A DNA stretch of 64,000 nucleotides from NCBI GenBank assembly GCA_049322955.1, contig JBMOPU010000012.1:211581-275580 (forward strand), given 5' to 3'. The notes beneath the pieces are model-generated. The model saw nothing but the letters and a program-made list of their open reading frames with translations, had not been told where the DNA came from and searched no databases. The position numbers and the translations under genes are program-made. This DNA comes from Patescibacteria group bacterium (GTDB lineage: Bacteria; Patescibacteriota; Microgenomatia; UBA10105; UBA927). Positions 1-24,000 of the stretch are shown here, piece by piece. Each line of letters begins with the position of its first letter. The first letter of the stretch is position 1.

Positions 1-8
1 CACAGGAA

Positions 9-3000: not shown

Positions 3001-6000
3001 TCCAAAAGCTTGCAAACGGCGGGTTCCTCGGATTGGGAAGAAATCGTGAATTATCCCGCCTGGTCGGTAACCTCACCCGAGCAAACGGCAGATCGATTGC
3101 CTCACAGATTCCCGAGGCCCTTGATTTTTCCAAGCCCGTCGACGCATCAGCAAAGCCCTACACCGAAGCCACCAACGTGTATGAGGTGATAAAGGGGATG
3201 GAAGCGCATACCTACGTCAATCCCGCGGATGATTTGGCGGGAAATGTGTTACCGAAAGTAATCCGCGGTATTAACGAGGTGAAGACGTCATTTACCGCAA
3301 CCAACACTCCGCAGGATATCCAACGGCTTACGAAAGTCGCCGCCGATGCGGTGCCGGATGCGATTCGGATCGCTACCCGCGTGAATCAGGGAGACAGTAT
3401 GACGCCGACCGAGTCATACACGGTAGAACTTGCGCGAAATACCGCGGTTGCGATGCAGGATGGGGTAACGCAGTTGGAAGCCCGACGAGGCACCTTACCG
3501 CGGCTTACCCAGAGCGTGCAACAGCCAAATACGCTTCGTGCAGGGGATGTCATCGTCGGCAAGGACAAAAACGGGGTGGAGGGTGCACAGACCATTCTTT
3601 TGGGCATGCGAGTGTCATGGACGGATGCCTCCGGTGACCACGAGGATCTGATAAACGGTGAATCCACCGTGATAACTTTCCCCGCCGGCACGACGAGTAT
3701 CAGGATTCAAACCAGCGGATCAAGAAGTGAGGTTGAGCTCAGCGGCCCGGACACACAGCTCGTATCTGACCAGAACAAAAACGCACCATCATTTGAAGCA
3801 ACATATCAATTGAACAACGAAATTGCGCAAACTCAGGCGGCAATACAAAAAACATTAGGGAATGCGACGGTCGACACCCTTACTGCGGCGCTCGATCGTG
3901 AAGCAAAACGCAAAGTACAGAATGAGCTGGCACGACTCGGATTAGGGAACCTTCCCGACAGTGAAACCGATGCAATTGCCACCGCGCTTCGTGCGTATGA
4001 GTCAGCAGTGGCAAGAGTAATAAGTCAGCTCAACGACCGCGCGCTCGAGGGAGATCCGCAAACACGCATTGATCGCGAAACAACAACGGAAAAAGCCGCA
4101 TTGCTTCGTGCGTTAAACGCCCTTCTTATAAAACATGCGGGAACGGTGAAAGATGCAAAAATCGCCAAAGCATTCACCAATCTCGGTATTGCCCAAAACG
4201 CCAACGTGAATCAAACGCTTTCCTTCTCCGAAGGGGGATCAGTACGGGTTGTCGATGAAACCCATAAAGGGTTGCTTGTCGATGCCGCCCGAAAACAAAC
4301 CGCACCGACGGTGACGAGTATAGCGGTCAGGCTCTTTGGTACCTATACGGATAACGCGCTTTCTTACCAAAAGAAACAGATAAATCGCGTCATAGCAAGC
4401 GAGAAACCGAACATCTTTGTCCGTGCAATTTCCGGAATACTACCGGCACTTCGCGGGATCGCACGAATACCCGCATCGTTTATGAGTGCAACCCGATTCG
4501 GCAATCTCGTGGATCGCGTTCGTAATTTCTTCGGTAGGACTCCCGTGACTACACCGGAATCACCGCAGGTTGCCCAGGGAATAATCGACGGGCTCATTGC
4601 CGGGGTGAAAAACGGTGCGTATAACGATGCGTATGTCGCGCTTACAAATGCCAGAAATCAGGGGAAGACCGATGATGCAACAAAGCTTGAAACGGCACTC
4701 CGCGAAAGTATTGCCGGACGACTTTCGCAGGCATTGGGAACGACCATTGCGGTGCATCATGACATGGTTACCGCCCTTTTGGCATATGAAGGCGGGTTTG
4801 TGCAGGCGGCAAGCACATGGAATGAAACTCCGGAAGGATTGACGTCGCTTACCTTGTTTGCCGAGGCTATCCAACAGGAAGGCGGTATGGCGGTACTTCA
4901 GCAAGGTGCGATTGATGCGGTCAACGCGTTCCGTCAGGCGACAACACTCACCCGGGATATCACGCCGGAAGCGATTATCGGTGTCGTTACCCAACCAGTT
5001 GTACAGGCAACCTACACGCTTCTTGCCGATGCAAATGCCGCAACATTGGAAGCGGCGGCACAGGAAAAAGCAAATACGCCGGTAGAACGGTTGAAAGCGG
5101 CACTTGCCAAGAAGGATTACCTGACCGCATATACGCTCTTTAATGAGCTCCGTGCCAATGCGGCAAATCATCTTGACGAAATTGCCGAAGCCGATACGGC
5201 GCTCCGTCGGGATGTCGCGACCCGATTGGGCACACAGCTTAACGTCACGCTCGATCCTACAACAATCGAGATTGCCCGAATCGTTGACTACGAAGCAAGT
5301 ATCATTGAGCTCACCAATCGCTCGATATCCGAAAATTCGGTCAACAACTATGAAGAATATTTTGATGCGGCACATCGGGATAGCGAGGTTGTAGCCGCCC
5401 TTGCCGATGCCGAAGCCGCCTTCGATACGCTTGCGGCACCGCTTGGGGTAACCCGTAATAGCTATAACGACGGATTACGGAAAACGATTGATCCGATGAT
5501 GCATTCGGTATGGGATGCCTTAAAGCTTGATGAAAAGATTGCGGCGAGGATTCAGGCAGAGGAAGATGCCCGATATGACATCGGTACCGTGCGAGGATGG
5601 GTGAATATACTCCGCAACACGTTCGGTACCGCATACCGCTATACCTTTGGGGCTAATCCGATTCCCGGCATTCGTGCATTGTTGCAGATGGCGGTAAATA
5701 GAAATAGAGATCTCACACCTGCGGATCGTATCGAAGAATTAATAGCATGGGCGGCATTCCGTATAGCCCCGGCGGCGTCAGGCAATCCGGTAGGCATACT
5801 CACCAGTGCAATATTTTGGGCATGGGATGGGATTCGGATTGCGTCAGCTCCGCTTCGCTCCGTATGGAGCAATCTGGTACATCCTGAACTGGTAACAACC
5901 GCGGTTCAACCGCTTGCGGGTCCTGACATTGCTCCCGATGCCGGCATACCCGCCCGCGGTGTACGCAGGATCATTTATAACAGCAATATCTTTACCAACG

Positions 6001-9000
6001 GGCTTACCGGCGCGGAAGTGGTCAAGCGCGTGCCTATTTATCTTGTTACCCGCGTCTTGTTGCTTGCTTCAACAGGACTCGGTGGCTGGACAGGACCGAT
6101 TGCGGGGTATGTCTTCTATCAGGACATGACATTTGCCTTGCCCGCCCAAACGCGTATCAATATCGCTAACGGTTCCCGCGAAGGCTTCTTTGAGGATTTG
6201 TGGAATGCGCATCCGTTCTTTGGTATCGGTCACAAGCCGTGGAAGCCTATGTATATTGTCCGCGATCCGTTTATTTTCTTTGCCCGGTACTCGATTCCCG
6301 TGGCGGGGCAAATTCTCTTCATGCATGACATGTGGCGAGCGGTGAGTTGGCCGGTGCGGGCAATCATACGGGCAACCCAAACGCCGAGTATTCCTACCGT
6401 TACTCCCGATGCGGAAGCATTCTGGGGTAACGACGGCACCATAACGATTCTCGGCATATCGGTACCCCGTACCTGGATTAACGCGACCCCGAATGATCGT
6501 CCGCTTATGTATGTTGCAACAAGAGTGCTTTCATTGGGCGCATTAACTTCGTATGACTGGCACCGGTTTATTGATGAGGGAGGATGGCGATGGTTGTTTG
6601 CACAGCCTGCCGATCACTGGACAAGGCGGCATGACAATGCCTGGTATCGATACGTTGCCAATCCGCGGCTATGGGGCGGAGGAATAGGGGAGACTGCGGC
6701 ATTTATAGGGACTCGGGTGATACTTAACGCATCATTCGGCGGTTTCGGACTCGTGTATGATGCATTCCGCGCTGTCCGTTGGGTGCGAGAGTCGTTTGCC
6801 GGCGGATATATTCCACAGGGTGCCGCTACGGCAACGGTAACCTCGACCCAATCCCAGAATTCCGCGCAAACAAATGGCATCACTTTGGTTTCCGCAGGAC
6901 TCTACGGGGATCAACAATTCAAAAACGGAGGCATTGTCAAAATAACCTATACCGAACAGGACGGCAGTCAACATACGGTGGACGGAACACTCCGGCTATG
7001 GTCACGTGACGTCAAAGACAGCATTTGGTATGTGGTACTTCCCGACGGGAGACGCGCAGATATTCGGCAAAGTAAGATAGTCAAACTGACGGAAAATATA
7101 ACAAAGAATAACAATCAGAGCACAACGCAAACCGGCACGACGACGCAACAGACCGCAACACAGCAAAAACGTATTTACCGCACCGGGGGTATTTACACGT
7201 TCCTTAACGCGTCTCCCTGGGGACAAGGATGGGGCGGTCTTTTCCGCTACGGTTTGACCCGATACGGCGGGTCGATGCTTATGACGTCAGTCCCTGTTGT
7301 CGGTCCGTTTATCGGTCCGGCATATACCATCGCGCTCGGATTATATGATACCTATCGCGTGCTTGATTGGCTGGCTACAAGCGGCAAATTCCCTAGCTTT
7401 ACCGGCAAGCGGGCGACGCAAACGTCGCAGATATCCCAAACGGGACTGACGCTCCACGCATTACCCGAAGGCATGGTATTGCTTGGCGGCGGAAGATATC
7501 GCAACAACAGTACCAAACAATATATTGTCAGAAATGCTGAGACGGGAAAAACCCGCACGCTTCGGGCAGGGAAAGAGATTACGTTGCGCAATGAAATCAT
7601 CGAGCTTTCTGACGGAACGATGGTGTGGTTCGGTGAAAAAGGGTCGGTGATGCGATTTACGTTAACTCCTTCAACCGACACGCCGCAGGACATAATAAAG
7701 GCAAATACCGCTTTTGACGGCGGATTACTCAAGTCGGGAGTAACGGGAGAAACCCTCTTTGATCCGGGAAAGATTGGTCCTCTGGCGCAATCGCTCCGTG
7801 CGGAGATTAACGGGAAATCCTATACGATTCACATGCCGCAAGACATGAAAGAGGCGGCACGAGAGCTTCAGGATAGACGGGTTTTTGCCGCGGTAACGAT
7901 AGCCGCGTTACTTCAGGCGGAAGAATACCTGGGTGTATCCAATAATTTACCGACCGAGATTCTTGCCGTACCGGACGCGGCGTCGCCGTCACAGGCGGGT
8001 CTTGCAGGCTTTTTCGGAAGCAACAAAACCAAAAACGGCATGTTTGTGGTATTGCAAAAGAACACCGCCGACTACATGGGAATCGTTGCCCATGAATTCA
8101 CGCACGAAACACTCGGTTCCTCACCGCTTGCGGATTTCACCGAAGGGGTCGCCGTGCACATACAACGACGTATCGCGCCGAGTAGCCCTGCGGCCACACA
8201 TTTCTATACCAAGAAACTCGATCCGAAACTTTTGCATTACAACGAAGCGTATGTTCCCGCCACGGCAACGGAACTTTTCGGAAATGATGTCAACAAAGAA
8301 TACCAGGTTGCGTACTCATGGAGCTATGTGACGGGCGCGTTCCTGCTCCAGGCAATTGCCGAACTCTACGGCGATGAGGGCATGGTGAAGTTTATGACAG
8401 CCTATGAGCTGAGTAAGGATCGCTATTATCACGGCGGGTATGAACTTAATATTGCGGATAAAAAGACCGGAAAAACCGTGCGCAATCGCGATGCCATCAG
8501 GACACTTCTCATTGACACCTTTGGCGTACGCGAAACAAACCGCATCATAGGGATGCAGGAAGCCGCGCTCAAAGGCTATGGTGAGCGGTTCCTCAAAGAG
8601 GAGGCCAAAAAACAAAACGCAAACATTGTTGCGGAGCTGACAATCGGGCGACTGGCCGCAAATGACTACCAGACGCCGACATCGAACGATACCATCTCAC
8701 GAAGACATGCGGTGGTAACCCGCACGAGCAGAGGCGGATTATTTATTGCCGATGTAGGGTCGCAAAACGGTACCTGGGTAGAACATAACGGCGTTCGGGA
8801 ACTTTTGACACAGGAAGCAAGAAGGCTGGTTGCCGGTGATACGGTACTCCTCGGCGATCAAAACCGCGGAGAAATCTACACCGTCACGCAAAATACCGCA
8901 GGTGAGCTTACCTTAAAGAAAGGGGACACCGATCTCATGCTTCGTGCCAAAACACCGGCGCAATCTGCCGCGTCCGCCGCAAGGCCCTCCGCCCGGTACA

Positions 9001-12000
9001 AACCGAACGGTTGTTCTTCCTGTCGTGCGGAGTTAATCGTTTTCGAAAAGATTATGGAACGCGTTTTAGGAGCGGCCCAGGCAGAAACGCCGAATATTGC
9101 CGAAGCCAAGCGACTTATCGCGCTCGCCAAGGGTTATTTCTTGCGCTACACCATGGCAAACACGGAATTCCAATCCGTCGCAAAGGCAACGGTTGAGGTG
9201 GCGGAAGCACAGCTTATCAAAAATAGCGCCGAACAAGATGATGCCGTCGTAGCGCTTTCTGATGCGATCCTGCGCATGGAACAACGGACAGATGTTCCCG
9301 AAGAGCTCGTTTCGGAATGGGACGAAGCCATTGCCTATCTTAAGGAGAGAAGGGAAGAGGTGAAGGGTATGGCGGTTATCGAGGCGACGGAAGTCGAACG
9401 GATTCGTGCACAAGTGACAAGCGGATTCTATACGGCACAGGCCGCCTTGGGTGTGTATGTCCCCGTCGGATTGCGGAACGAAGGAGACCAAACTCTTGCC
9501 TCGTTTGGTATTACCCGGCCGACGGACGCGCAGATTGTGGAACAGGCAGTTGCCTCGATTGTCCCTGCGGCGGTTGATGCGGTGCGTATCGCACAGCCGG
9601 ATCTTGCGCAGGAAAATCCCGAAGGGTTTATTGACACGACCATGCAATTTATTCAACAAACGGCCGAATACCAGGAACTGCTGTCGGGGAGAAGTCCCGC
9701 GGTGATCATATCGTCAATCCGCGCGGCATTGGCCGTCGTCGTGCGAAATTCCGTGAATGCAACCACTGAAGGGCAGGCAGTTACCGTTTTTGCCTCCCCG
9801 CAAGAAGCCATTGAAAAACTTCCCCTGCAGAAAACCACGAAAGATACACTCCTTCTTGTTGTAACCAATGAAAATGAAATAACCGATAAACGGTTGGTTA
9901 AGCTTCGCGACTCCAGTGCGTACTATCCGCCGAAACCGGGCAATGCCGCATTAAACGGAGCGACGACCTCGTGGAACTGGTACTCCGAATTCACACAGTC
10001 TGCCGCGTGGGACTCCGTGTATCAGGAAGTTCGTCGGATAATCGCATCGGGTGAATCTGACGTCGTAAAAGCCGTGCAATTGGAAGCGCTTATGAATGTG
10101 ACGGAACGGGAAACCGTGCAAAAAGCCGAAGATGGTGTAGCCAGATTGCGTCGTGCGGTGCGTTTTTGGATAGACGGTTTTACCAATGTGCTGACGGAAG
10201 AGCGGCTTACCCAAGTGCTTGATGATCTTTCGTTCGGCAAGGTATATCAAAGTAAAACAGCGGGCGGGGAGGTACAGCAGGTTATTTTGGTGACGCCGCA
10301 AACCTTCGGCTTAAGCGTCATGAGTGCCTTGGATCGTGCGAAGGTGTATATCGCTTCGTCCGGTTCCAATGCGATTAACAGGGTCAGCACGATGTTTTTT
10401 GCCGAACCTCCCATTGAAGTGACGACCAACGAAAACGGTTCGGAAGTATTGGAACATGTTAGGAAAAATCCCAAGAGTATTATATTGAAGACCCGCTTGC
10501 CGTCGGGTGAAACGGTGACTCCGGAAGAAAAACTGAAAGGATATATCGATGCCATCGAAACAAAAGGCGCACGCAAAGTGTCCTTCACGGTTATTTCTAA
10601 GACGGGGGTACGTGATCAGAAAGTGCTCTCACAACTTGCGGAGTATGTGGCGACATGGAACACGGGGCATCCGGGCGACATCGTGCGTCTTACGGTCGAT
10701 GTGGTGCAGGAGTTCGGACGAGACTCCGATATTGAAGTATTCAAGTGGTTACTGCTTCCCGGCGTACATTCACTGGTGCATAGCGGTTCGAAAGCCGCGG
10801 GCGGGCCTGCTCATGCGGGCTTTATATGGGTTACCGCCTACGGACAGACGTTGGATGGTGCAAATGTTCCGTCGCTTGCACAGAACATCGAATCCCTTAC
10901 CTTTGCCGAACAACTTCGAGTGGTGGGAAATGTTGAAGCGATTATTGCTATGTTTAATCTCCCGTCGGAGTATCGGTTGGACGGGGAAATAGCCCGGGCT
11001 GTTGCCGAAGAAGCGGACGATTTCAACCGATCACTCGGTCTTACGCCGCTTTGGGAGGAGGCGATCGTTTCGGATACGACGCAACCGAAAGGTGATGACG
11101 GAAAATATCCGGAAAAGAAAGTGTTATTAGAGCAAAAGAATAACGAATCCATCCGCTCGTATCGCATCCCGTTGGTGTACCGCGACGGAAAATTAGTGCC
11201 CGAGGTTGACGCAAAAACATTGCTTCGCACATGGGAGGAATCCGGATATATTATGGGCGGCATTTTGGAGGAAACGCCGGATTTGGGGCCCATTCTTCGC
11301 TACGGTATTTCCACCCAACTCATGCGACAACTTTTGAATGAAGGGATAACAACGCCAGAGGACGCCCGGGCTCGCGTGCGGGCGCTATTTGCCGAAAAAC
11401 AGGCTGAGCTGGCAAATAAATATACTGAACAGCGACGTGCAAACGAGGTGCCCGTTACGGTTCAGACCCAAGAGCAACAGGGCTACAATAGGGAGCAATT
11501 TACCGCGGCACACCCATGGCTTGCGGCATTCGGATCGATATTCAACACGACGTTTAACGCGATGTTCTATGCGGGCATCGTCTTTTTGGTTGTTACGAGC
11601 GCAAGTGTAATTGCTCCACTGTTCGCGCCCCTTATTGTTCCCGGATTCGCCTCGATTTTTACCGCCGCATGGATTTTCATCACGGCGGCGCTTCCGTATT
11701 ATTATGTTTTCAAAGATTCCCCGAGTTACGACATAAACAGGGTGCTATATGCCGCTACCGTGCGGTTTGATTCGACAAAGACCGGCACTCTTACCGTTGA
11801 GACCCCCCAAGCCAAAACAGCCGGCATAAGTCAGGAAGCGCGAAGCAATTTCGAGGCGAATCACCCGGTGCGGTACACCGTTGCAAGAATTCTTGATGCG
11901 CTTCTTCCGGGATTAATGATCGGACTTCTGGTGTTATACATGGTTTCCTCCGGTCTCGGGCTTGTCACACTGTATGCGGCGGCATTTGCCCCGTATATAA

Positions 12001-15000
12001 GCGCATCAGCGCTCACCGTTATCTTATCTATTCTTTCTGTTCTGCCGCTTCTTGCAGTGCACAAAGATATTGCGGCGACGACTCAGCAACTGCACGACAG
12101 TATCTACCGCATCATGATGCCCGTAGCTTCGGATGGGGAAGCGGAAAATGATCGCATGCCGTTGCCGACGCCGCCAATTCAAGTAAAACAAGTTGAATTA
12201 CAACCGGAAGGGCAAACATTTCGGATGGGAAATGATCTTGTCGATCCTCTCGAGGAGATATTTACCGAAATGGTACAAAAAAATCATCCTGAGTGGGATG
12301 GAAAATGGGAAACGGTGCGGACGTTCTTCATGCGATATTTATGGGATAAACACTTTACCGTTTCCTACACGCATGACGGCACAAAATATACCTACACCAC
12401 GAGTGATGCAAAAGAAACCTTTGTAATCACTGATGTTGAAGAGTTTATCGATGCGCTCTTTACGTTTGATTCCCTGATAAGCGCAAATAAAGAAAAATCT
12501 CAATGGATTGAAAATCTTACCGTGCAAACAATTTGGGAGCGGGCAACAAGCTATGATTTTGCGCATCCTACCGAGTTTCTTCGTCGATATACGCAACAAT
12601 TCATCGCAGGTCAGATCCCATTTGTTGATTGGGTAACCGTGGGTACGATAACAACGCGGCAGGGCGACGAGCAAGTTCGCGTGCGGTCGGTTGAAGCGAA
12701 GCATTCCTACATGGAAAGTCCATATATATTGGAAATAAGCTCGGTGAAGGATAATGCTGATCCGAACGACCCGGCAAATCAGCTCCACTCACTGCATTAC
12801 GGCATCGATTCAGCCACGCAAGTTTCCCTCTACACAGTACAACTATCATCAATCAATGATGCGTCCAACGGGAAATTCGCGGAATCAGAGGTGTCTATCT
12901 CAATTCGCATGAACCGCATACGGTCATATCTTGAGGAGTTGGGATTGTTAACGAATGCCTCTTTTACGGTTCCCGACTCCGATGTGGATTGGCTGGATTT
13001 GGAGCGCACGCTTGCGGCGCTTGCGCCTGCGGTTGCCGCTCGGGTAGCAGATACGCCCGACACCGATAAACAATACGCGACATTGACCAGGCTGAACGAT
13101 GAAATTAAAAGAGTACAAACCCTGGTAGGTGAATTAATTGTAAAACGAAAAGAAATACCTCAGTTAGAAAAACGTGTTGCCGCGTTAAAACGCTACAACT
13201 CAATGGTCGATGGGGGCGGGGCATCAATGATGAGTTTGGTAACTGCTCTGGCCACCTTGAAACGATTAGGATATACCACTGTGCGGATACCGGTGCTCCT
13301 TAAATACGTACAGCATGTAGGGGTTAACACTGCAGAAATACCCGCATTGTTACGGAGCGATTGGGAAAGAAAAATAAAGTCTCTTACTTCATTTACGGGC
13401 ATCAAACAAGTGTCAACCGATGATCCCGATGTAGTGATGCTTGATTTGTCCGCATGGGATTTTGATCTCACAAAAAACAACACACGAACACGGGATCTCG
13501 CGCCGTTCTTGCAAGATGTGAAGAATATGCCGGTGAAAGAGGCTCCGCTCAATTTTGATGGGAAACCTTCAAGCAACGGGCTGTTTGCGTTTGACCAAGG
13601 CTTCGTACGGTTTATGGGGATGATAGATGCCCTAAAGGCATTTATTGGGCGGCTTATGCGATCGGTACCGTTTGTAAGAACTTCGACAACTCCCGTTGAA
13701 GAGGAATTGAACATGCCGTTGCCGACGCCGCCGATTCGTCCTGCGGAAGGACAAAATACCGATGCCGAAGCGGGTCTTCCCGCCCGAACAGATGAGTTGA
13801 TTGCGGAGATCCCGGCATCTCCCGGCACCGGATTTTTTGCAAGCTCGATGGACTTTCTCATTTATCAGGGACAACAAGCCGATGCGGGTACACGATTTGC
13901 CATCACGATGAATAGGCGAAACGGCAAGCCGTCGGGAGTGTGGGTCATGAACGCATATCCCACCGACGGGCAAACCGTCGTGTTAAACGGCAGACAGGTA
14001 CAACAAGGAGATGCCGTTTATCTTGTTGATAATTCGGTATTTACGCTGGGTAATCGCGAGTATCGGGTTTCCGTCGTCGGTGATTCGCTCCGAATCGTTG
14101 CGGATGCCACAGTCGATGTCGCGTCTAACAATCTCGCAACCGTCGGAGATGCCGTCCGATCAATGCGTGATGAATTACTCGGCTTGCTCACTGATGACCT
14201 TGCCGAATCACTTCGTGATGCGACAATTCAGGACGTCAGCATCGTTGATCTGATCGAATACGCCGTCCCGATCATCACCGGATCGGACGAGTATCAACGC
14301 ATCACGAATGACCGAACGGAAGCGGAGAAGGAAGAAGTTATTCGCTTGCTGAGGAGCATGTTGCCGTCATTCATCATTGAGCAGGTACCCCTTGCTTCTC
14401 CGGAGTTATTGGCGACGCGGCAAGCCAACCGTCGTGTTGAGGCAACACTTTCAAACCCGGGCGGAGATACACTCATAAATGAGAAAATTCCGCTGGAAAT
14501 TGCCGCGATTCAAACGGTAACGGACGTGATTGCGGCACAACTCGCACTTCCGGATTCGGCGCGATTTGCGGTGATGCAGGTGTTAAGTAGGATTCCGGAT
14601 GTCGTTGAATTCCTCACGAGACGATTATTTGACTCTTTACATACGACGGCCCGCGATCCCTTACGTCTTCCCGGCGAGACCATGGCAAAATTTGGGGAAG
14701 GTGAAGCAGACGAATTGCGTCGGGTCGGGATCGGAGCGCAGAGAGTCTGGAGCTCAATCGCGCTTCCGCTCTTCACCTCGCGCGGATATCCGGTTGTTGC
14801 GAGACTTGATGTCAGAAACCTCCGCGGAGCAAACGACGTGGCAGGACAAGGCGGATACACGCCGCTTGGGGACTATCTGCTCAGAAAGTTTGCGGATAGC
14901 GTTTTTGAAGCTCTCGGGCCTGATTATGAGGTTATCCGCGTAGGCGGCGATGAATACATGATACTCGCGCGGCCGGGCGCGGCAACCGACGGCGTACAGC

Positions 15001-18000
15001 AAAGGATTGAGGCGGTATTGGCAACAACCCACATGTTATACAAAACGCCGCAAGGGATAGAAAACCAGCCGATTCGTGTCGAGTTTAAAGCACCTGACGA
15101 ACTGCTTCCTATTGAAGAACGTAATCATGGCGGTGATTGGTTGACGCTGATGGAGAAAGGAATCTATACGGATGATGCCACCATTGATGCAGGTAGTGAT
15201 TTCCATCCGATGCTCGCGTATACGGCACAAATCCTCACTTCCATTCGCGTACCGCTTGCCGGAGAGCTTACCGCATCGCAAATTGCATCGGTGCACGGAG
15301 TAATAAAACGGATCATGGCGGTACTGCTGTTTGATGATGTCCTTCGTGATAGCGCACGGGGCATGCAGGAGTCTTTCCGTGCCAAGAATCCCCGTGCGAC
15401 CGTTGCCGTGTATGAAGATGTGCAGGACTGGATGGAGGCGGTACGTGTTGAGATGCCGCTCGGATTTAAGATTGTCCGGTTCGACCAGCCGGGGATTCTC
15501 AAAATGCTTAACTCGATGAGCAGTCTTTACGGAGATCAGATGATTGTCCGTCAGTTTGAGAAGCTCGCCCGGTTTGCCTTTGAACGTCTCGGTGTCACAA
15601 ACGTGCGTGTGTATCGACGCGCGAACGAATTATACCTTGCCGTTGACCCTTCGGTGACAATCGACACGGAGCAGATGCAGGATGCATTACGCGGGTATGG
15701 CGATAACGCCGCAGGTCTCTTTAAAGAGCTTGCGGTGGTCAGTCAATCGGAAGTGACGCTCGTGCCGACCGGCGTCGACGGTCGCGGCGCGTCGGAAAAT
15801 GTCCGACAACTTAACAGGGCGTTGTCTGAACTAGCAAACGGCATCGTAACGCATACGAATGCAAGCATCTTGGATGAATACGTTCGCAAACCAAACAACA
15901 TACTTACTCGGATACGCAACCGGTTTGCCCGTTCCAGAGAGGTGACTTCCGAAACGCTTGCCGACCGTCAGTTTATCGTCAATTATCTCAATCCGTTCGA
16001 TAAGCGCGGTATAGACCGGATCCAACATATCGGAGCGACACCGGAAGAAATAGAGTCACTTAAACGATTTTATGTGCAGATCGAGCCCGGAGCGGGGAGC
16101 GTGGTACAAGATGATCAGGCGTACGCGACGATTATTACTCTCTTAACGAGAATCAATAGGGACAACAATTGGTTTATCAAGACGTGGAATACGCTTATTG
16201 AACGTATCAAATTTGCCAATCAAGAAGTAAGCAGGATCGGGATTGTTGCCCCGGGTACGAGGGCACTGTTCAGTATGTTTGGCGGAACAGATCATTCCGT
16301 AAATATTACGAACAGTGCGCGCAAAGAACAACATACGGCGATTGCAACCCTGCTATCACGACAATTTACCACTGATAAGTCATTACAGGTGCAACTTATC
16401 GCGCATCTATCGAACGCCAAAAACGCGTTTATCATGGACTTTATCGCGGATCATCTGATGGACGGTTATTTCCAGGAAAGCAGAAAATATATTAATGCAC
16501 GTAAGTTGCCGGGAGTCGGGAGAGAGTTGCAGACGGATCAGGATCAAATTGTTGAGCTTCATAACAACACCGAGTCACCGCAGTCAGTATGGAGTATTCA
16601 TGCAATTCCGTTCCTTCAGGGCTTGGGAGCTCAGGTAATGACGGTCTTTGACGTAGAGCCGCTTCCCGACACGAAACTTGACTCCGCAACGCAGACGGCG
16701 CTTCGTGACTTAGAACTCCGAAGGGTGGTTACCCTGATTCATAACCTGGGAGGCGGCAATTACCAGATTGTACGTCTTAATGACAACCGGTTTGCGGTAA
16801 TGATGATCGGGACGGTGAGTGATTCGGAAAAATGGGAACTTGAGAACAGACTGCAACGGCTGGAAACCTTGGTGGCAAGACCTGATGCGCAGGGGAACGT
16901 TGCGTTTAATCGATCTCGATCACACGTGTTTCCCTTCATTCCGGTTACCCTCAAGTCTGAGGAAGAACTTCGCCGCGAAGGCGAGGAGTTTGCCGCAGGC
17001 ATCAATCTCTTTACGCCGATGACCAAGAAACTCCTGTATCTTGCGACGAAAGGCTTTGCCTACCAGCAGGATGAAGAGATAGCGAAGAAACAGGATGATG
17101 TGCTGACAAACCCCGCGCGTCGGGTGAAACTGCGTGCACAGAACGCAGGTTATGCACAAGTACTTGCCACGCTAGAACAGGACACGATCCTCTATGGTCA
17201 GGCCGACTTTGTCTCCTATATTTCTTCGCTTACCGCAGCCATGGCATCGGATGACGTTTTGGACGGGACGGCCGCCAAACTCGAGGCAAAATATAACAAA
17301 AAAGATCCTGACGTCAAAGTACGGGTATTTGCCGATCTTCCCTCGACACTGAAAGCGGCACGTGCTCAATACGGCGATGAGTTCAGTGTCATTGAAGTAA
17401 ACGTTGACGAGACACTCCGATTAGTCGGAAAGGCACACGGGTACGAACAGGGAGACATCTTGATCCAAACCTTGTTTGAAAAACTCGGCCATCATATTTT
17501 TACCGAATTGAGACTGCAAAATATGATCGTCTATCGCGAGTCGGCGACCAAATACTATGTCGTGTTAAACGTCCACTATCCGCTCGATACGAAACGAATG
17601 CAATCCAAACTGAATGCGGAATATTCGCCGTATCGGGTAGGTGAAAAAGAGTATTTTGTCCTGCCGGTTGTTGCCATGAAGCATATCGGCCTAAACCCCA
17701 GCGTTACGGTGGGAGAGGCGGAACAACAATTTGCCGCCGCACTTATTGAATTGCAAAAATACTCGGAAACGAAGATGCGGGCCGCCATACGGGAACATTT
17801 CGTTAAGGAAACAACGCTTCCTCCGTTCCATTGGGCGTGGTTAATTTCCTATCTTCGTTCCGGCGGTAATGCCGAGGAGGTTCTGGCAAAATTCAGCAAT
17901 AATGCCCGAGATATCAGTGCGGCGGCGCAGGTAACCACCGTTCGTCGTGACGGAAATTATTCGGATATACGACGCGTCATCACAAAACAGACCTCGGAGG

Positions 18001-21000
18001 ATTTAGAGACACTGCGCGAAATCAGCATGGAAGAGACCTCAAATTGGTCGCTATGGTACCAGATGAACAATGAGTTCAAAGGGTTAGTGAATGTTATCGG
18101 GGAATTATTCCTGGGGGGCATGGAGGTGATATTCTCGAAATTCCCGCCAAAACCGTATCTTCGCCCGAATGTTGCCGAGGTTGGAAAAGATAATGAAGAC
18201 GCAAAACAAAATAGTTTTGAAGCACAGCTTTCAACGGTATCGCAACGCAGGAGTGAAAAACGGGCGGTAGCCCAAGTGTTGCCGGTCGGCATTGATCCCG
18301 ATATTTCTGAAGATATCGTGGGTATCAAATCTATGGCGGCGCATTTGGCGTACGCCTACGGTAAAGATTACATCCAGCCGTATCCCGGCGGACAACGATT
18401 GCTTGCCCACTATGATCCCAACATGCCGGGAGCCCGCTATCCGGGGCATCGCGCTATCCCCGTTTCCGTTGCGTTCTATACCCCCGCCGAGGAAAATCGG
18501 TGGACTCGTTTCTTGGATTTCCTGGCGAAGCTTGTGTATATAAATCGCTTTACCGGTACGTGGGAAGTGATGGAAATAACGCCCGCCGAAATCGGCTCTG
18601 CGATGGCGGAATATGAAGCCGCCATGCATACCGTCTATAAATCAAAAGCCGCGGCGACCGAGGCAAGAAACACAGCGTATCAGGCAGGGATTGAAAAGCT
18701 GGAAGCAATCTTAAGCGACAAACACCTTGCGGCAAAAACAAACCCCGTCGCAGTAAGCCAATCACGACCGAGTAACATCGTATTTGCGGTGGTTCGGGGT
18801 ACGACGGGGTCGCTCGCGCAAATCCATGACTGGTTCGGTAAGGTCGGAGCGCCGATTCTTATGGCGTTTAATGACAGTCGCGAACCGGTTGTCATCGACG
18901 ATCATGTGGTGGTCGACGGTAATCCCGGACTTGATGTGCGGGATAATATCATGCGGCAACTCGGAAGTTTGGTGAGCGAAGTACATCAGGTGCCGCAGAT
19001 TATCGAAAACAAAAAGGATCAACGAAAAACCATTCGCGCGGAGGATTTGCCGCGCAATATCCAATACGAAACCATCATGATGGCAGTTGCCTATGCCATG
19101 CGAAAGCAGGGCTTCCCCTCATTGGGAACAACGGTTGCCACGGGCTCCCTTGATGACCGCGTTACCTTGGGAGCGGTATCCCTTCGAGAACCCGTCAAGC
19201 CGCAAGCGATTCGCGTCGCCATAGAACAGGCGCATTCGGAATATGGCTTACTTGATCGTTTGGCACATATATACCGGCATGTAGTGCCTGCATGGTTGGA
19301 ATCGTTTATCACGGCGCTTTCTGAGGTTTTGCCGATCACGCGTGATTTCGTAAAAATTGCCGGGAAAGGACCGTATGTCACCTTTATCCGCCGCGATTAT
19401 ATCGGTGATCCGGGATTACTCACCACCGTGCTTTCCGACATTCCGTTTGATAAGAATGTTCCTACCGTCGTCATCCTGCAGGATAAAAACACCGGGCAAT
19501 CACGCATCGTATTACAGGGGGTCGCCAATGATGCCGTTCGTGAGCAGATGTTGCAGGATATTTTTGAGGAGTTACATCAGCTGGAGCAAGGGATCACACG
19601 TACCGCAAATGATTGGCCGAAGCCGAAATCGCAGATTGTCCGTCAATTTGAATCGCTCGCCATGTATTATCGACGCTTCACGGGAAGATCGGTGCAACGG
19701 GCATCATCATCCTTTGAGAACGCGAAAATCGTCACCAAGAGCACCGCCTATACCACCACCACCAAAGAGCTGGCGACGGTGACGGACACAACGACGCTTC
19801 CCGGTGTAACAATTACCATTGCAGGAGACACGCTGACGATGACCAATGAAGTAATGACGCTAATTTTGGCAAAAGACATGGCTTCTCCCGCAAGTCTGAC
19901 ACCTACGGAAGTAGCGCAACTTCGCGAAACGATTAACACGTACGAACAGAATAAACGCGCATTGGCAAATGTTCCCGACACCTCGACCGGTCTTTCGGTA
20001 CTAAACCTCATCATGCCGTCTCTTTTCGATACGAATAATTCGGCGCGCGAGACGACGAATATCGTGTCACTCCAAATATTCTATGCATCACAGGGCAAAC
20101 TCAAGGCATTTAGTTTGGCACCCCGTGACGATACCATCGTTGATGGGGTAACGACCGATGCTGAAGTGGGTATTGTCGGGAATGCCGACAAATATAAAGT
20201 CATGGACGTACGAAACGGCAAGATGCTGGTCGTGCGAAACGGGCTTGAGAATGACTTGACCGACACGCAGAAAAACGCTTTGGAAGATCTGTTCGTCAAT
20301 GCAAAGACCGTAGAGGAAGCCAACGAGCAGATTCAAACCCTTTTCCAGCAGTGGTTTCCGAACGCGTCCCGATCCGATCAATTTGTCACCCTGATTACCA
20401 TCCCCGCACAGGAAACGGTAGAACGAATCCAGTCTGGGGCAGTACAGCTTCGTTTGGAGCCCGATACGGCGATATTGCGCGATGCGCCGGTTCCCACCCG
20501 CGAAGCACGTCAAAGAGATCCCGGACTTGAGAGTGTTGCCTACCCGGTAACGTTCCGTATCGATGAATCGGGTGCCATTGTTGCCACCTGGGCAAACAAT
20601 GCGCCGATCACGATAAACGGTGAGGAACCGGACGGCACCAGCGCCAAGCTGTTTGTCGGTGACGTCATTCGTTTCGGCAACGACGGCATGGCGTATGAAA
20701 TACTGGTCGACGATACCAACCATGCGGTATTGTCGGTGCAATCACACCCCGAATATACCGTCACCCTGCCGCGCACCGTGATCCCCGAATACGGACTCAT
20801 CAACATGTCACGTTCAACGATGGTGGTGGATGGGGAAATAAACCTTGCCCCTTTAGATATGCTCTGGCCGACAAATACGGCAAACCCGCTCTTTATCGAG
20901 CTTCCCGAGGAACGAGGGACGGCACAAACAAACGGGAGACCGGTAGTTGTCCGCAAAAGGGCGGATATCCGGCTTGCCAACGGACAGGAATCATGGTTAC

Positions 21001-24000
21001 GGGCAATTGTCCTTCCGTATCCCAACGAGGTTGCGCCGGCAATGAAAGCCAACGTTTGGTATCAGGTGAAAAACCAGGCTGGTGATATCGTGGGATCAGT
21101 TCGTAGAATCACGGCAAATAAATTCATGGTCACCTATACCCGCGAGCCTGAACAAAGTCAGACACGATCGCTTCCGTTCCTCCGTCCGTCGCTTCCCGAT
21201 CAATTGCGTACCGACCACCAACGCGCCGTGACAACGACAAGAACATCACCTAATTACGCCGCGGTGGCAACAACGCGCCGGGTCGGGCAGATGGTGCATG
21301 CAACGGGACAGGTCAATCACACAGGCGACAACGCACGACGATTCGGTGCCACGGGAACGCCCGTCAATTGGTCGGTTAAACTCCGCGAAAGTGATATTCC
21401 GTATTTTGACAGTCTATCGGAAACGGAAAGACTTAACTGGATTACCCGGAGAATTCAGGAAGCGGACGAAATCGTGTATGCCCAGCATGGGTTCCAAGCC
21501 GACGGCAGAGTGTACGCAAAACCTATGCAGGAGATACTCCTTCCGTATGCGACTGATGGCAGACGACAGGTGGGCGTAGCACCGTCTCTCATGGGAGCAA
21601 ACGGCACGTATATCGAAAAACAACCGTACCATTATGAAGATGCGCTACAACAATCGATGCACTTCTACACCGCACTTGACGGCTTCTTTGATTTCAGACA
21701 TAAGCGGGTGACGTTTATCGGTCAATCAACGGGAGCACGTATTGTGCTTGAACTTGCCGGGTTATTGTCAGAACAACAGCAATTACCCAAAGATGTACGC
21801 TTCGAGCTTGTCGCCCCGTATATTCTGGGACGCAAACAGCTCAAAATATTCGACGGCGGATGGGGGCTCGGATTCCTCTATGGGTTCGTCAATAATCGCA
21901 ACGTCCCGATGCCGGTACGAAGAACATTCTTATTGCTTGCCAGGTTGCCGATTTTTATCGTCACCACTCCTGACCGGGTGATCGTGAACAACCGGTTAAG
22001 CGGGCTTACGGGAAACCCCGCCATTGCTGATGCAAGCATCATTCATCGGGAAAACCAGCAGGATGTCGCATATTCGACCCGATGGACGGATGTGATTTTG
22101 GGAGTGCCCGCCATTGATTGGGAAGCACTACCGGAGGCGGTTCGCCTTGCCCCGATTCGATTCCACCTGCCGCAAAAAGAAAACATCGTCGATCAAAAAC
22201 AGACGGAGGACTTTATTGAGGAAAAGAACCTGCGAAGTCAACAGGGCTTTGCGGTCGTAACCTACGGCGAAGGGCACTATCCGATCGACAAAGACTGGCA
22301 GAGGGTGGGGGCACACTTAAACGGGATTGCCCAAACCGCGCAGGAGCCCGAAACTCTACAGCCGATGCGACGATTCGGATTTGAAGTTGAAATGCCGCGA
22401 TTGGTGGAGCGCGGAGAGGATCGTCAGCCGCAACCAACGCCGGGTCCTGGAGTACATATCGGCACGAAGCAACAGGGAACCAACCGATTCGTCGAGCCGA
22501 ATAAGACGCTATTTAGCCAATTTGACGTCGATCATGCCAGCGTGCAACCGGAAGGAGAGGGTCTTACGATTACTAATCGTTCACCAAAAGGCACATGGAT
22601 AAACGGGGTGCTTCTGTCGGTAGGGGAATCAAAAGCAATCGCCTTCGGCGATGAGGTAGTGTTCGGACAAAACCCCAATGATCCCGAGGAAACGGAACTA
22701 TGGCGGTATCGCGTAGATATGAGTCCGACGGGCAATGTGGCTCTTGTACGATTCTCGCCGGTTGCTCAAGATAACGAAGCGGATATTTTGTTACCGATAG
22801 TTCTTCCCAACGGGGCCAAAGAAAACTTTGCCAAGAAGGCGGCACTATTTGCTCCCACCGATTCCTTCAGGTTGGCTTCAATTGCCGAACTCCCGTGGCA
22901 ATCGGATGAACGGATCATCATCGAGTATCGGACGGCAAACGGTACCCGGGCATCGTTGTCGGTTCGAGCTACCACGTCAATTTCCGACATTTTGGATCGA
23001 TTGCCGTTTGGTGCCGCAAATGACATGCGTATCTTAAAGAAAGTCACGAAAGGGTATGTCCAGATCGGGACTATGGAGCGGATTCCCACAGGATGGGTGA
23101 AGGTGTTTGGCATAGAAGGCAACGTGCCGGCGGTGGTAGAAACGGGTGTGCCCGAACCGGCGGCGGTGGCGGCAGAAAAGGCCGCCGAGCGTTTGATAAC
23201 CTTTGTCGGAGGTGTAAATCACACTGCTTATCCCACCGAACAGGACGTAAAAACGGCGTTTGCCGAAACCTTGGGCATAGATGCCTCCTATATCGTCGTG
23301 CAGGCCATCACCCCCACCGACTATGCAATCAGCATAGACGCCCCGTCACTGGTGTTTTCCGGTAACGTTATTGAACGGGATAAAGGCGTACGATTCTTTC
23401 ACATCGATACGATAGCGGTTCCCGCCGAGTTCCGAAAAAACGGGGAAACGGCAATGCGTTTTCGCGCAATTGAGGGAATTATCCGATCTCTTTTCAGCGT
23501 CGATCGTGCGGAAGCGGTAAATCAGCCGACCAGTGAGGCCGCGAAGAACTTTTGGAAGTCCGTAGGATTTGCCCCGCAGACGAATTCGGCGCTCAACCAA
23601 ACGTACAAAAAAGATTATCGGACGGTGAGTGCAACTTCACTCTATGCGTTTGACCAGGGTTTTGCCCTGTTCATGAAGATGACCGATGCGATCGGAGATT
23701 GGATAAAGTCGAGGTGGCAGACGGAACAAACGAATTCAGGTGTATCCGTACCGGTACGTGTCGCGCAAACAGAAGTGAATGTTAATGCCAATACGGCAAA
23801 TCCGATATCTCAGGTCGTCGTCGGATTACCGATTGAAGACAGGGCAAAGTTTCTTAATGAAATGGGCTTGCGGGAAGAGCAGGTTATCCCGATTAAAACA
23901 AAAGTAATTTCATTGCATCCTGATACCGCCGATGAGATGAAACAAGCGATTGAACGAGGTGAATATTCGTTCATTGTGATACCGGTTGCACTGAATGCTT

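What the first reader, a model, noticed from the sequence alone, without database searches (positions are those of the whole stretch)
14735..17670. GGDEF-like module with GGDEY active-site variant, plus a degenerate second copy
The region 14735-15030 matches the diguanylate cyclase core (RLDVRNL…NDVAGQGGYTPLGDYLL…RVGGDEYMIL). The Phe-to-Tyr change in GGDEF is unusual, and no PAS/REC/EAL partner is visible. A second segment (17395-17670) keeps the scaffold but has GEKEY in place of GGDEF, so it is likely non-catalytic. Embedding a nucleotide-cyclase fold in a >11-kaa protein is rare.
Basis: partly seen in the sequence, partly recalled or inferred. Interest (0 to 1): 0.55.

Follow-up and report, generated by a model that had tools for sequence, protein, structure and literature searches.

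The report
GGDEF-like modules in giant protein
A giant protein (over 11,500 residues) of a tiny-genome Patescibacteria bacterium contains four domains with the fold of the enzyme that makes the bacterial signal c-di-GMP, and only one of them keeps an intact catalytic motif; this is an unusual variant of a well-known domain, not a new kind of system.

Summary
The motif is real. RVGGDEY (nt 14937-14957) sits on the beta2-beta3 hairpin of a GGDEF-fold domain. The metal-binding Asp, the guanine-binding Asn and Asp, the Arg and the GGDE residues are all present. There is no RxxD I-site.

Pfam PF00990 alone is below threshold (19.2 bits against 23.8). Profile-profile comparison (E 7e-15) and Foldseek on an AlphaFold2 model (top hits almost all diguanylate cyclases) establish homology.

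It is a ~515-aa unit made of an N-terminal helix, GGDEF domain D1, a linker, a degenerate GGDEF domain D2 and a helical tail with NPFDKRG. The unit occurs twice in tandem: unit A at nt 14595-16139 and unit B at nt 16413-17855 (E 4e-17).

The same unit exists as standalone ~500-aa proteins in Patescibacteria and inside other giant proteins of that phylum.

My best reading is that A-D1 is a GTP-binding, possibly catalytic half-site and the other three domains are non-catalytic. GGDEF domains in giant proteins have already been reported in Omnitrophota and Actinobacteria. Interest is moderate.

The parts
9..34733 (+). Giant ORF, 11,574 codons within the window and open at the left edge. It is called as 13,322 aa on an identical public contig. 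It hosts all the features below.
   Evidence: The window's neighbouring proteins are NCBI MFZ55347xx, 'Patescibacteria group bacterium', on a contig of 990,597 bp.
14595..16139 (+). Unit A (aa 4863-5377): a full-length copy of the ~500-aa tandem GGDEF-like unit, made of N-helix, D1, linker, D2 and helical tail.
   Evidence: An HMM built from 14 standalone homologues scores 186 bits, E 2e-57, over HMM positions 41-508. AF2 model: pLDDT 76.7, pTM 0.74. Foldseek top hits are almost all DGCs.
14793..15086 (+). A-D1: GGDEF-fold domain with an intact catalytic core (D4934, R4939, N4942, D4955, R4977, G4979-G-D-E-Y4983).
14943..14957 (+). GGDEY motif on the beta2-beta3 hairpin of A-D1.
   Evidence: Conserved as GGDEY in orthologues at 43-85% identity (L009, P0001, L006, L008, L017).
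15462..15758 (+). A-D2: degenerate GGDEF-fold domain. Its hairpin is YRRANEL (nt 15612-15632) where the family consensus is RRGGDF[FY].
   Evidence: hhalign of the D1 profile against the D2 profile gives 93.6% probability, E 2e-7, in register.
15990..16010 (+). NPFDKRG: the family-defining motif in the C-terminal helical tail of unit A.
   Evidence: P, K, R and G are invariant or nearly so in alignment A1.
16413..17855 (+). Unit B (aa 5469-5949): a degenerate tandem duplicate of unit A that lacks the NPxDKRG tail.
   Evidence: BLASTP of A against B gives E 4e-17 at 23% identity. The unit HMM scores 48.9 bits, E 9e-16. AF2 model: pLDDT 75.6, pTM 0.69. Foldseek gives 49 hits at E<=1e-3, all GGDEF proteins. 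The A+B arrangement is also present in P0001, L009 and P0005.
16629..16919 (+). B-D1: degenerate GGDEF-fold domain. Its hairpin is RLNDNRF (nt 16773-16793).
   Evidence: Poorly conserved: 34% identity to P0001.
17379..17690 (+). The true hairpin is RESATKY (nt 17535-17555). GEKEY (nt 17640-17654) lies after alpha3.
   Evidence: Well conserved: 68% identity to P0001 and 99% to L009.
11538..12059 (+). The only strongly hydrophobic cluster in the protein, about 4 predicted transmembrane helices (aa 3844-4017). It lies between the DEAD/FHA region and the GGDEF units.
   Evidence: Kyte-Doolittle scan. This is a prediction only.

Best explanation
Shown:
- nt 14595-17855 encode two tandem copies of a ~500-aa unit specific to Patescibacteria. 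Each unit holds two GGDEF-fold (palm) domains in cis followed by a helical tail.
- In unit A the first domain (A-D1, GGDEY) keeps every core residue a diguanylate cyclase half-site uses in the beta1-beta3 region: the beta1 Asp for Mg2+, a basic residue at the K332 position (PleD numbering), the Asn and Asp that read guanine, the Arg before the hairpin, and GGDE.
- A-D2, B-D1 and B-D2 keep the fold but have lost the hairpin acids.

Inferred mechanism:
- A-D1 binds GTP and Mg2+ and is the only site in this region that could be catalytic.
- The three degenerate domains act as non-catalytic partners, either a pseudo-dimer scaffold or a regulatory surface. Degenerate GGDEF domains of FimX and LapD, and the inactive palm of two-palm enzymes, work this way.
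- Making c-di-GMP needs two active half-sites. Product formation would therefore require two giant proteins, or A-D1 plus a standalone family member, to pair. Otherwise the site only binds or senses GTP.
- The unit was probably captured from the standalone gene family, then duplicated and partly degenerated inside the giant gene.
For: Homology and fold:
- Searches (E 7e-15; 23 PDB hits, all GGDEF proteins), 53 and 57 for unit A.
- for unit B.

Unit structure and duplication:
- (E 4e-17).
- D1 and D2 profiles match each other at E 2e-7.

Family:
- A full HMMER search of 1.84e9 representative proteins found 40 hits. They include standalone proteins of 485-624 aa, other giant proteins, and canonical DGCs that match only the core.
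- The standalone proteins pass the Pfam GGDEF threshold.
- Source names are Patescibacteria, Microgenomates and Roizmanbacteria; one standalone protein is annotated 'diguanylate cyclase'.

Selection on the catalytic residues:
- GGDEY, the beta1 Asp, Asn and GD are kept in orthologues down to 43% identity.
- Paralogous domains in the same protein lost these residues.
- A-D1 is 73% identical to P0001, against 25-40% for the flanks.

Substrate: the guanine-reading Asn and Asp are present, so GTP is the expected nucleotide. This rests on established knowledge of PleD N335 and D344.

Topology: the DEAD-like and FHA domains and the GGDEF units are separated by an even number (~4) of predicted TM helices. 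That fits a cytoplasmic location with access to GTP.
Against: - Sequence similarity to canonical GGDEF covers only beta1-beta3 (Pfam positions 35-114 of 161).
- The N-terminal wide turn and the C-terminal Lys/Arg (PleD K442, R446) cannot be identified.
- PF00990 is below its gathering score.
- There is only one intact half-site per chain.
- The family's D2 consensus RRGGDF, and the linker motif RxxRLxxxHPE conserved in the standalone proteins, are lost in this clade.
- One orthologue has GGDTF, and other giant proteins have SGDEH, KGDKY or VGDTY. Catalysis is therefore not universally required in giant-embedded copies.
- No PilZ, EAL or HD-GYP domain was seen in the window or next to standalone members.
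- The first 11,000 residues are almost free of Cys. This could mean the protein is exported, where GTP is absent.
- There is no experimental data for any family member.
Confidence: 0.5

Rival explanations
1. The whole region is non-catalytic. All four GGDEF-fold domains, including A-D1, act only as nucleotide-binding, regulatory or structural modules. Known precedents are GTP-binding degenerate GGDEF domains that control neighbouring domains, and protein-protein scaffolds. The intact motif would be kept for ligand binding, not for chemistry.
For: - Three of the four domains are clearly dead, yet A-D2 and B-D2 are as conserved as A-D1 (68-70% against 73%). Selection in this region therefore does not need catalysis.
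- Giant-embedded copies elsewhere carry SGDEH, KGDKY, VGDTY or GGDTF.
- The C-terminal catalytic Lys/Arg is not identifiable.
- No c-di-GMP receptors or phosphodiesterases were seen nearby.
- Foldseek hits for unit B include the degenerate GGDEF domains of FimX (3hva) and LapD (6pwk).
Against: Ligand binding alone rarely needs the full set D...N...GD...R-GGDE. Exactly this set is kept in A-D1 across orthologues at 43-85% identity, while the paralogues in the same chain lost it.
Confidence: 0.35
2. The unit is a single-chain, two-palm nucleotidyl cyclase or oligomerase. D1 and D2 would form an intramolecular pseudo-dimer, as in Cas10 Palm1/Palm2 or adenylyl cyclase C1/C2. The product would differ from c-di-GMP, for example linear pppGpG or another signal nucleotide. 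The conserved KRG of the NPxDKRG tail would supply the missing phosphate-binding basic residues.
For: - Two palm domains sit in cis with helical domains after each. pTM values of 0.74 and 0.69 indicate a defined mutual arrangement.
- In the standalone proteins D2 keeps the Lys, Asn, GD and RRGGD residues but lacks the second acid.
- NPxDKRG is invariant or nearly so.
- Weak Foldseek matches over more than 400 columns to type III-D Cas10 (8s9x_C) and to a class III cyclase-like protein (6yii).
Against: - The Cas10 and class III matches have TM scores of about 0.18-0.20 and are far weaker than the GGDEF matches.
- No PADLOC defence family matches.
- In the window's own protein D2 has lost RRGGD (it reads RRANEL), so the hypothesis applies at best to the standalone proteins.
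- I could not inspect model coordinates to see whether the hairpins face each other.
Confidence: 0.1
3. The resemblance to GGDEF is a chance motif match in a long, compositionally ordinary ORF.
For: - Pfam is below threshold.
- Both profile-less word-index searches returned nothing.
Against: - Profile-profile E 7e-15.
- 23 PDB hits that are all GGDEF proteins.
- Two independent AF2 models give Foldseek top hits that are all or almost all GGDEF proteins.
- The motif is conserved in orthologues.
Confidence: 0.02

Closest known systems
Canonical GGDEF diguanylate cyclase domains (PF00990; e.g. PleD 2v0n, DosC 4zvf, T. maritima TM1788 4urg)
   Same: - Same fold: Foldseek probability 1.0, TM about 0.5-0.6 normalised to the target.
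- Same beta1 Asp, Asn, GD and R-x-GGDE on the beta2-beta3 hairpin.
- Guanine-specifying residues are present.
   Different: - Sequence similarity is confined to beta1-beta3.
- No DxLTGLxNR wide turn.
- The C-terminal Lys/Arg cannot be recognised.
- No RxxD I-site.
- Tyr replaces Phe.
- A 4-residue insertion (QGGY) lies before GD.
- Below the Pfam gathering score.
- No sensory N-terminal domain; instead fused in cis to a degenerate GGDEF domain.
Degenerate GGDEF domains used as receptors or scaffolds (FimX 3hva, LapD 6pwk)
   Same: A-D2, B-D1 and B-D2 keep the GGDEF fold without the catalytic hairpin and are still conserved. These structures appear among the Foldseek hits for unit B.
   Different: - No EAL partner.
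- No evidence of c-di-GMP binding.
- The arrangement here is GGDEF-GGDEF in tandem.
Uncurated Patescibacteria family of ~500-aa tandem GGDEF-like proteins (e.g. MBI3620245.1, annotated 'diguanylate cyclase', Ca. Roizmanbacteria; P0010, 'GGDEF domain-containing protein')
   Same: Unit A matches the family end to end (186 bits): N-helix FLxxRLFD, D1 with GGDE[FY], D2, and the NPxDKRG tail.
   Different: - Here the unit is embedded in a protein of more than 11,500 aa, not free-standing.
- It is duplicated.
- D2 has RRANEL instead of RRGGDF.
- The linker motif RxxRLxxxHPE is lost.
GGDEF domains reported in giant proteins of Omnitrophota and Actinobacteria (West-Roberts et al., bioRxiv 10.1101/2023.11.21.568195)
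   Same: A giant, mostly unannotatable protein with transmembrane helices, a DEAD-like ATPase and GGDEF homology, in an ultra-small bacterium that probably depends on a host.
   Different: - Different phylum (Patescibacteria).
- No pilZ genes downstream; the neighbours are envelope-sugar genes.
- The GGDEF homology here belongs to a distinct tandem unit not described in that paper.
Two-palm enzymes (Cas10 Palm1/Palm2; mammalian adenylyl cyclase C1/C2)
   Same: One active-looking and one degenerate palm domain in a single chain.
   Different: - Only weak structural matches (TM about 0.18).
- No HD domain, GGDD motif or CARF context.
- The intact motif is on the first palm, not the second.

Membership tests
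Pfam PF00990 GGDEF / diguanylate cyclase | HMM score at or above the gathering threshold (23.8 bits) | tested here: not met
   A-D1 scores 16.4-19.2 bits, E 0.001-0.008, over profile positions 35-114 of 161. A-D2, B-D1 and B-D2 give no hit. Standalone relatives do pass, at up to 45.6 bits.
Pfam PF00990 GGDEF / diguanylate cyclase | GGDEF (palm) fold | tested here: met
   AF2 models of units A and B (pLDDT 76.7 and 75.6). Foldseek top hits are all or almost all DGCs, probability 1.0, TM 0.5-0.6 normalised to the target.
Pfam PF00990 GGDEF / diguanylate cyclase | GG[DE]EF on the beta2-beta3 hairpin, with both acidic residues | tested here: met
   A-D1 has G4979-G-D-E-Y4983 on the hairpin. This is not met in A-D2 (RRANEL), B-D1 (LNDNRF) or B-D2 (RESATKY).
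Pfam PF00990 GGDEF / diguanylate cyclase | beta1 metal-binding Asp and guanine-reading Asn and Asp (PleD D327, N335, D344) | tested here: met
   D4934, N4942 and D4955 align with these positions in HMMER and hhalign alignments to DGCs.
Pfam PF00990 GGDEF / diguanylate cyclase | C-terminal phosphate-binding Lys/Arg (PleD K442, R446) and N-terminal wide turn | tested here: inconclusive
   Alignments stop after beta3. Foldseek covers about 146-157 columns of ~161-165-residue targets, but I could not inspect the coordinates.
Pfam PF00990 GGDEF / diguanylate cyclase | RxxD inhibitory site five residues before GGDEF (common but not obligatory) | tested here: not met
   The positions read G-P-D-Y (LGPDYEVIRVGGDEY).
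Pfam PF00990 GGDEF / diguanylate cyclase | Synthesis of c-di-GMP from 2 GTP by a dimer | not testable with these tools
   Needs an enzyme assay.
Patescibacteria tandem GGDEF-like unit (uncurated) | End-to-end match to an HMM of the standalone ~500-aa proteins | tested here: met
   Unit A: 186 bits, E 2e-57, HMM positions 41-508. Unit B: 48.9 bits, E 9e-16, HMM positions 37-459.
Patescibacteria tandem GGDEF-like unit (uncurated) | D2 hairpin RRGGDF[FY] | tested here: not met
   Unit A has YRRANELY and unit B has YRESATKY.
Patescibacteria tandem GGDEF-like unit (uncurated) | C-terminal NPxDKRG motif | tested here: met
   NPFDKRG at aa 5328-5334 in unit A. It is absent from unit B.
Cas10 / mCpol-type defence cyclases | Match to defence-system models, a GGDD motif, and a CRISPR or CARF context | tested here: not met
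   PADLOC gives no hit at E<=0.1. Foldseek matches to Cas10 are weak, with TM about 0.18. The neighbours are envelope-sugar genes.

The most novel reading that the evidence does not exclude
The tandem unit may be a Patescibacteria-specific single-chain two-palm nucleotide synthase. In the almost cysteine-free giant protein, which may be exported or delivered to a host, the intact A-D1 site would make a guanine-based signal nucleotide inside or at the surface of the host bacterium and so manipulate host c-di-GMP-controlled behaviour. That would make it an effector of episymbiosis, not a house-keeping signalling enzyme.
Probability: 0.07. Interest if true: 0.8.

Novelty: new variant of a known kind. 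Interest (0 to 1): 0.4.

Why it matters
- Patescibacteria (CPR) have genomes of about 1 Mb, and this one gene takes about 4% of such a genome. Almost nothing in the protein can be annotated.
- Recognising a conserved, duplicated tandem GGDEF-like unit gives one of the few experimentally tractable handles on these giant proteins. Unit A or a standalone homologue can be expressed and assayed.
- The analysis defines an uncurated family (GGDEF domain, degenerate GGDEF domain, NPxDKRG tail) that current databases either miss or label simply 'diguanylate cyclase'.
- If A-D1 is active, second-messenger chemistry is built into a CPR giant protein. If it is not, this is a clear case of GGDEF-fold domains kept for non-catalytic roles.

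Tried and rejected
- DNA similarity to plasmid and phage collections: no match.
- Word-index protein searches with unit A and with the family alignment returned nothing. With P0014 the search found only 5 relatives. The full HMMER scan was the search that found the family.
I replaced it with a degenerate DNA pattern for [LF]NP[FY]DKRGxxR. It gave 15 loci, 9 of them true family members by HMM.
- PDB phmmer of the DEAD-like N-terminal region: nothing.
- hhalign of A1+B1 against A2+B2 with only two sequences each was not significant (E 0.25). With family-wide profiles it became significant.
- PADLOC defence models: none, so I rejected a Cas10, mCpol or CBASS-type reading.
- A literature search for 'GGDEY' found no paper on cyclases.
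- Searches for c-di-GMP or GGDEF in CPR found nothing specific.
- Chance match: rejected (see rival explanations).
I reran it without that row.

Full report
**The observation**

The finding lies inside one ORF, window 9..34733 (+), of 11,574 codons. No stop codon precedes position 9, so the ORF is open at the window edge. A public contig 100% identical to window 24745-42029 carries the gene called as 13,322 aa. Exact matches of neighbouring proteins are NCBI MFZ55347xx, 'Patescibacteria group bacterium', on a contig of 990,597 bp. The gene would therefore be about 4% of that genome.

In frame, nt 14802-14966 read RLDVRNLRGANDVAGQGGYTPLGDYLLRKFADSVFEALGPDYEVIRVGGDEYMIL.

**Is the first module a GGDEF domain?**

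Single-model tests are weak but all point the same way:
- PF00990 scores 16.4 bits in a 4,000-aa chunk and 19.2 bits (E 0.0011) for the isolated domain. Both are below the gathering score of 23.8, and both cover only profile positions 35-114 of 161.
- The NCBIfam DgcN, DgcS and TIGR00254 models give E 2.7e-5 to 8e-3.
- phmmer against PDB finds six diguanylate cyclases, with a best E of 0.003.

Deeper tests are decisive:
- A full HMMER scan of 1.84 billion representative proteins with aa 4800-5970 gave 40 hits.
- A profile of the D1 domain from these relatives aligns with canonical GGDEF sequences at 98.4% probability, E 7e-15.
- The family profile hits 23 PDB sequences, all GGDEF proteins, down to E 1e-7.
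- An AlphaFold2 model of aa 4850-5390 has pLDDT 76.7 and pTM 0.74. In Foldseek its top 50 PDB matches are almost all diguanylate cyclases, with probability 1.0 and TM about 0.5 normalised to single-domain targets.
- GGDEY (nt 14943-14957) lies exactly on the beta2-beta3 hairpin.
- Aligned to DGCs, the residues D4934 (metal), R4939 (PleD K332 position), N4942 and D4955 (guanine), R4977 and G-G-D-E 4979-4982 are all present.
- The RxxD I-site is absent; the positions read GPDY.
- The wide turn and the C-terminal Lys/Arg cannot be identified by sequence.

**The real architecture**

Self-comparison shows that a unit of about 470 aa is duplicated. Residues 4865-5294 match 5475-5934 with E 4e-17 at 23% identity.

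An HMM built from 14 standalone homologues (518 columns) matches two regions:
- aa 4863-5377: 186 bits, E 2e-57, end to end.
- aa 5469-5949: 48.9 bits, E 9e-16.

The unit has these parts, in order:
- an N-terminal helix, FLxxRLFD;
- PVxSS..P.L..GY;
- D1, reading D....ANxV..GDxLLR...LVRxGGDEF;
- a helical linker;
- D2, reading LxRxExPGxLKxINDxxGYxxGD...RRGGDF[FY];
- a helical tail with NPxDKRG.

The D1 and D2 profiles are homologous in register (93.6% probability, E 2e-7). Each unit is therefore an ancient tandem of two GGDEF-fold domains, and in D2 the second hairpin acid is replaced by Phe.

In the window the four domains look like this:

| Domain | Hairpin | State |
|---|---|---|
| A-D1 | RVGGDEY | intact |
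| A-D2 | YRRANEL | degenerate |
| B-D1 | RLNDNRF | degenerate |
| B-D2 | RESATKY | degenerate |

Unit A keeps NPFDKRG (nt 15990-16010). Unit B lacks it.

nt 17395-17670 lies within B-D2. It is the paralogue of A-D2, not of the GGDEY domain.

The AF2 model of unit B has pLDDT 75.6 and pTM 0.69. It places RESATKY (nt 17535-17555) at the beta2-beta3 hairpin and GEKEY (nt 17640-17654) after helix alpha3. The claim 'GEKEY in place of GGDEF' is therefore a register error, although 'non-catalytic' is right.

Foldseek of this model gives 49 hits at E<=1e-3. All are GGDEF proteins, including the degenerate domains of FimX and LapD.

**Relatives and distribution**

- Orthologous giant proteins carry the same A+B arrangement: L009 (85% identity), P0001 (56%; MCL4200211.1, Patescibacteria) and P0005 (27%).
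- L006 (Ca. Gottesmanbacteria, 50-63% identity) is also an orthologue, but its fetched locus ends within unit A, so unit B could not be checked there.
- Other giant proteins carry one unit: P0004 (Microgenomates), P0009, P0037, P0013, L008, L017 and L018.
- Standalone members of 485-624 aa pass the Pfam GGDEF threshold. Where they are named, they are called 'diguanylate cyclase [Ca. Roizmanbacteria]' or 'GGDEF domain-containing protein'.
- Their genes sit in housekeeping neighbourhoods: beside transketolase in 3 of 6 cases, beside transaldolase in 1, and inside the hrcA-grpE-dnaK...dnaJ-clpB cluster in 1. No PilZ, EAL or HD-GYP gene was nearby.
- No Pfam, NCBIfam or PADLOC model covers the whole unit.

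**Selection**

- GGDEY plus the Asp, Asn and GD residues are retained in the window's protein and in L009, P0001, L006, L008 and L017 (orthologues at 43-85% identity).
- L018 has GGDTF. More distant giant proteins have SGDEF, SGDEH, KGDKY or VGDTY.
- Against P0001 the units are islands of conservation. A-D1 is 73% identical, A-D2 70% and B-D2 68%, against 25-40% in the flanks and 34% in B-D1.
- Both the intact domain and two of the dead ones are therefore under constraint.

**Mechanism**

Shown:
- There are four GGDEF-fold domains.
- One has a complete beta1-beta3 catalytic and guanine-binding set.
- There is no I-site.
- There is no sensory partner other than the degenerate GGDEF domain in cis.

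Inferred:
- A-D1 binds GTP and Mg2+ and is the only candidate catalytic half-site.
- c-di-GMP synthesis would need pairing with a second active half-site, either another copy of the giant protein or a standalone paralogue. Otherwise the site acts only as a nucleotide sensor.
- The degenerate domains serve as pseudo-dimer, scaffold or regulatory partners.

I give about 0.5 to a catalytically competent site and about 0.35 to a purely non-catalytic role. A single-chain two-palm synthase with a different product gets about 0.1, and chance about 0.02.

Topology is uncertain:
- The only strong hydrophobic cluster (about 4 helices, aa 3844-4017) lies between the DEAD/FHA region and the units. That suggests the same, cytoplasmic, side.
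- Residues 1-11,000 hold only 8 Cys (0.07%, against 0.62% in neighbouring genes), while the last 574 residues hold 34 Cys and an HExxH motif. This pattern is typical of exported proteins and remains unexplained.

**Comparison with what is known**

GGDEF domains in giant proteins of Omnitrophota and Actinobacteria have been reported (bioRxiv 10.1101/2023.11.21.568195; 10.64898/2026.06.04.730025). The general idea is therefore not new.

I did not find three things described in the papers I could search:
- the Patescibacteria tandem unit;
- its duplication and differential decay inside a giant protein;
- the NPxDKRG tail.

Phe-to-Tyr is a minor, clade-specific substitution at a position that varies in this family.

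**Verdict**

This is a real feature and a new variant of a known kind, of moderate interest.

Noticed in passing
window 9-33008 versus 33009-34730: Strong cysteine exclusion. Residues 1-11,000 of the giant protein contain only 8 Cys (0.07%, in four close pairs), against 0.62% in 22 neighbouring ORFs. The last 574 residues contain 34 Cys and an HExxH motif (nt 34323-34337). The same Cys-rich, HExxH, '...EYLPxGGCxN' C-terminus occurs in P0001, P0004 and P0005. This suggests an exported or disulfide-bonded C-terminal domain. The implications for where the GGDEF units sit are unresolved.
   Followed up: partly
window 1-9 (left edge): The giant ORF is open at the window's left end. On an identical Logan contig (SRR32167788_6211, 48,343 bp) the gene is called as 13,322 aa. 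That is about 4% of the 990,597-bp contig that carries the neighbouring genes.
   Followed up: partly
window 13302-13736 and 23382-23816; 29550-29747 and 32751-32975: Two further internal protein repeats in the giant ORF: aa 4432-4576 matches 7792-7936 (E 8e-5), and aa 9848-9913 matches 10915-10989 (E 1e-7). No family could be assigned to either.
   Followed up: no
window 519-941, 8640-8855, 8091-8105, 11538-12059: The only other recognisable features of the giant protein are a DEAD/ResIII-like ATPase (aa 171-311, near threshold), an FHA domain (aa 2878-2949, E 4e-12), a second HExxH (aa 2695) and a cluster of about 4 hydrophobic helices (aa 3844-4017). More than 90% of the protein has no Pfam match.
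   Followed up: partly
L005, L008, L009, L017, L018 (genome contigs): Five MAGs titled 'uncultured Gammaproteobacteria bacterium' (binchicken / TPA assemblies) carry family members. Four (L008, L009, L017, L018) carry giant-protein orthologues 40-85% identical to this Patescibacteria protein, and L005 carries a split standalone member. The taxonomic labels look wrong.
   Followed up: partly
L020, L023, L027 (transketolase); L022 (transaldolase); L025/L026 (dnaK cluster): Standalone tandem GGDEF-like genes recur next to pentose-phosphate genes: divergent from transketolase in 3 of 6 contexts, and 13 bp downstream of transaldolase in one. One sits between dnaK and dnaJ. This could be lineage synteny or a functional link.
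   Followed up: partly
P0021 (789 aa) N-terminus: In P0021 an intein/Hint-like segment (…NHPYLTKNGW…VYDIEVEGTHNFVAGH…) lies upstream of the tandem unit, separated from it by about 90 residues. Its close relative P0037 is a 2,884-aa protein.
   Followed up: no
window 24001-34000: GC content falls to 0.45-0.48 in the last third of the giant gene, against 0.51-0.54 elsewhere in the window.
   Followed up: no
window 34745-63558: The downstream neighbourhood is rich in cell-envelope glycan genes: PIG-L deacetylase, an NPCBM protein, a HAD hydrolase, a dTDP-sugar epimerase, YfhO-like and PMT_2 glycosyltransferases, GT2, a hexapeptide acyltransferase, a DegT aminotransferase and methyltransferases. 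No PilZ, EAL or HD-GYP domain is detectable.
   Followed up: partly
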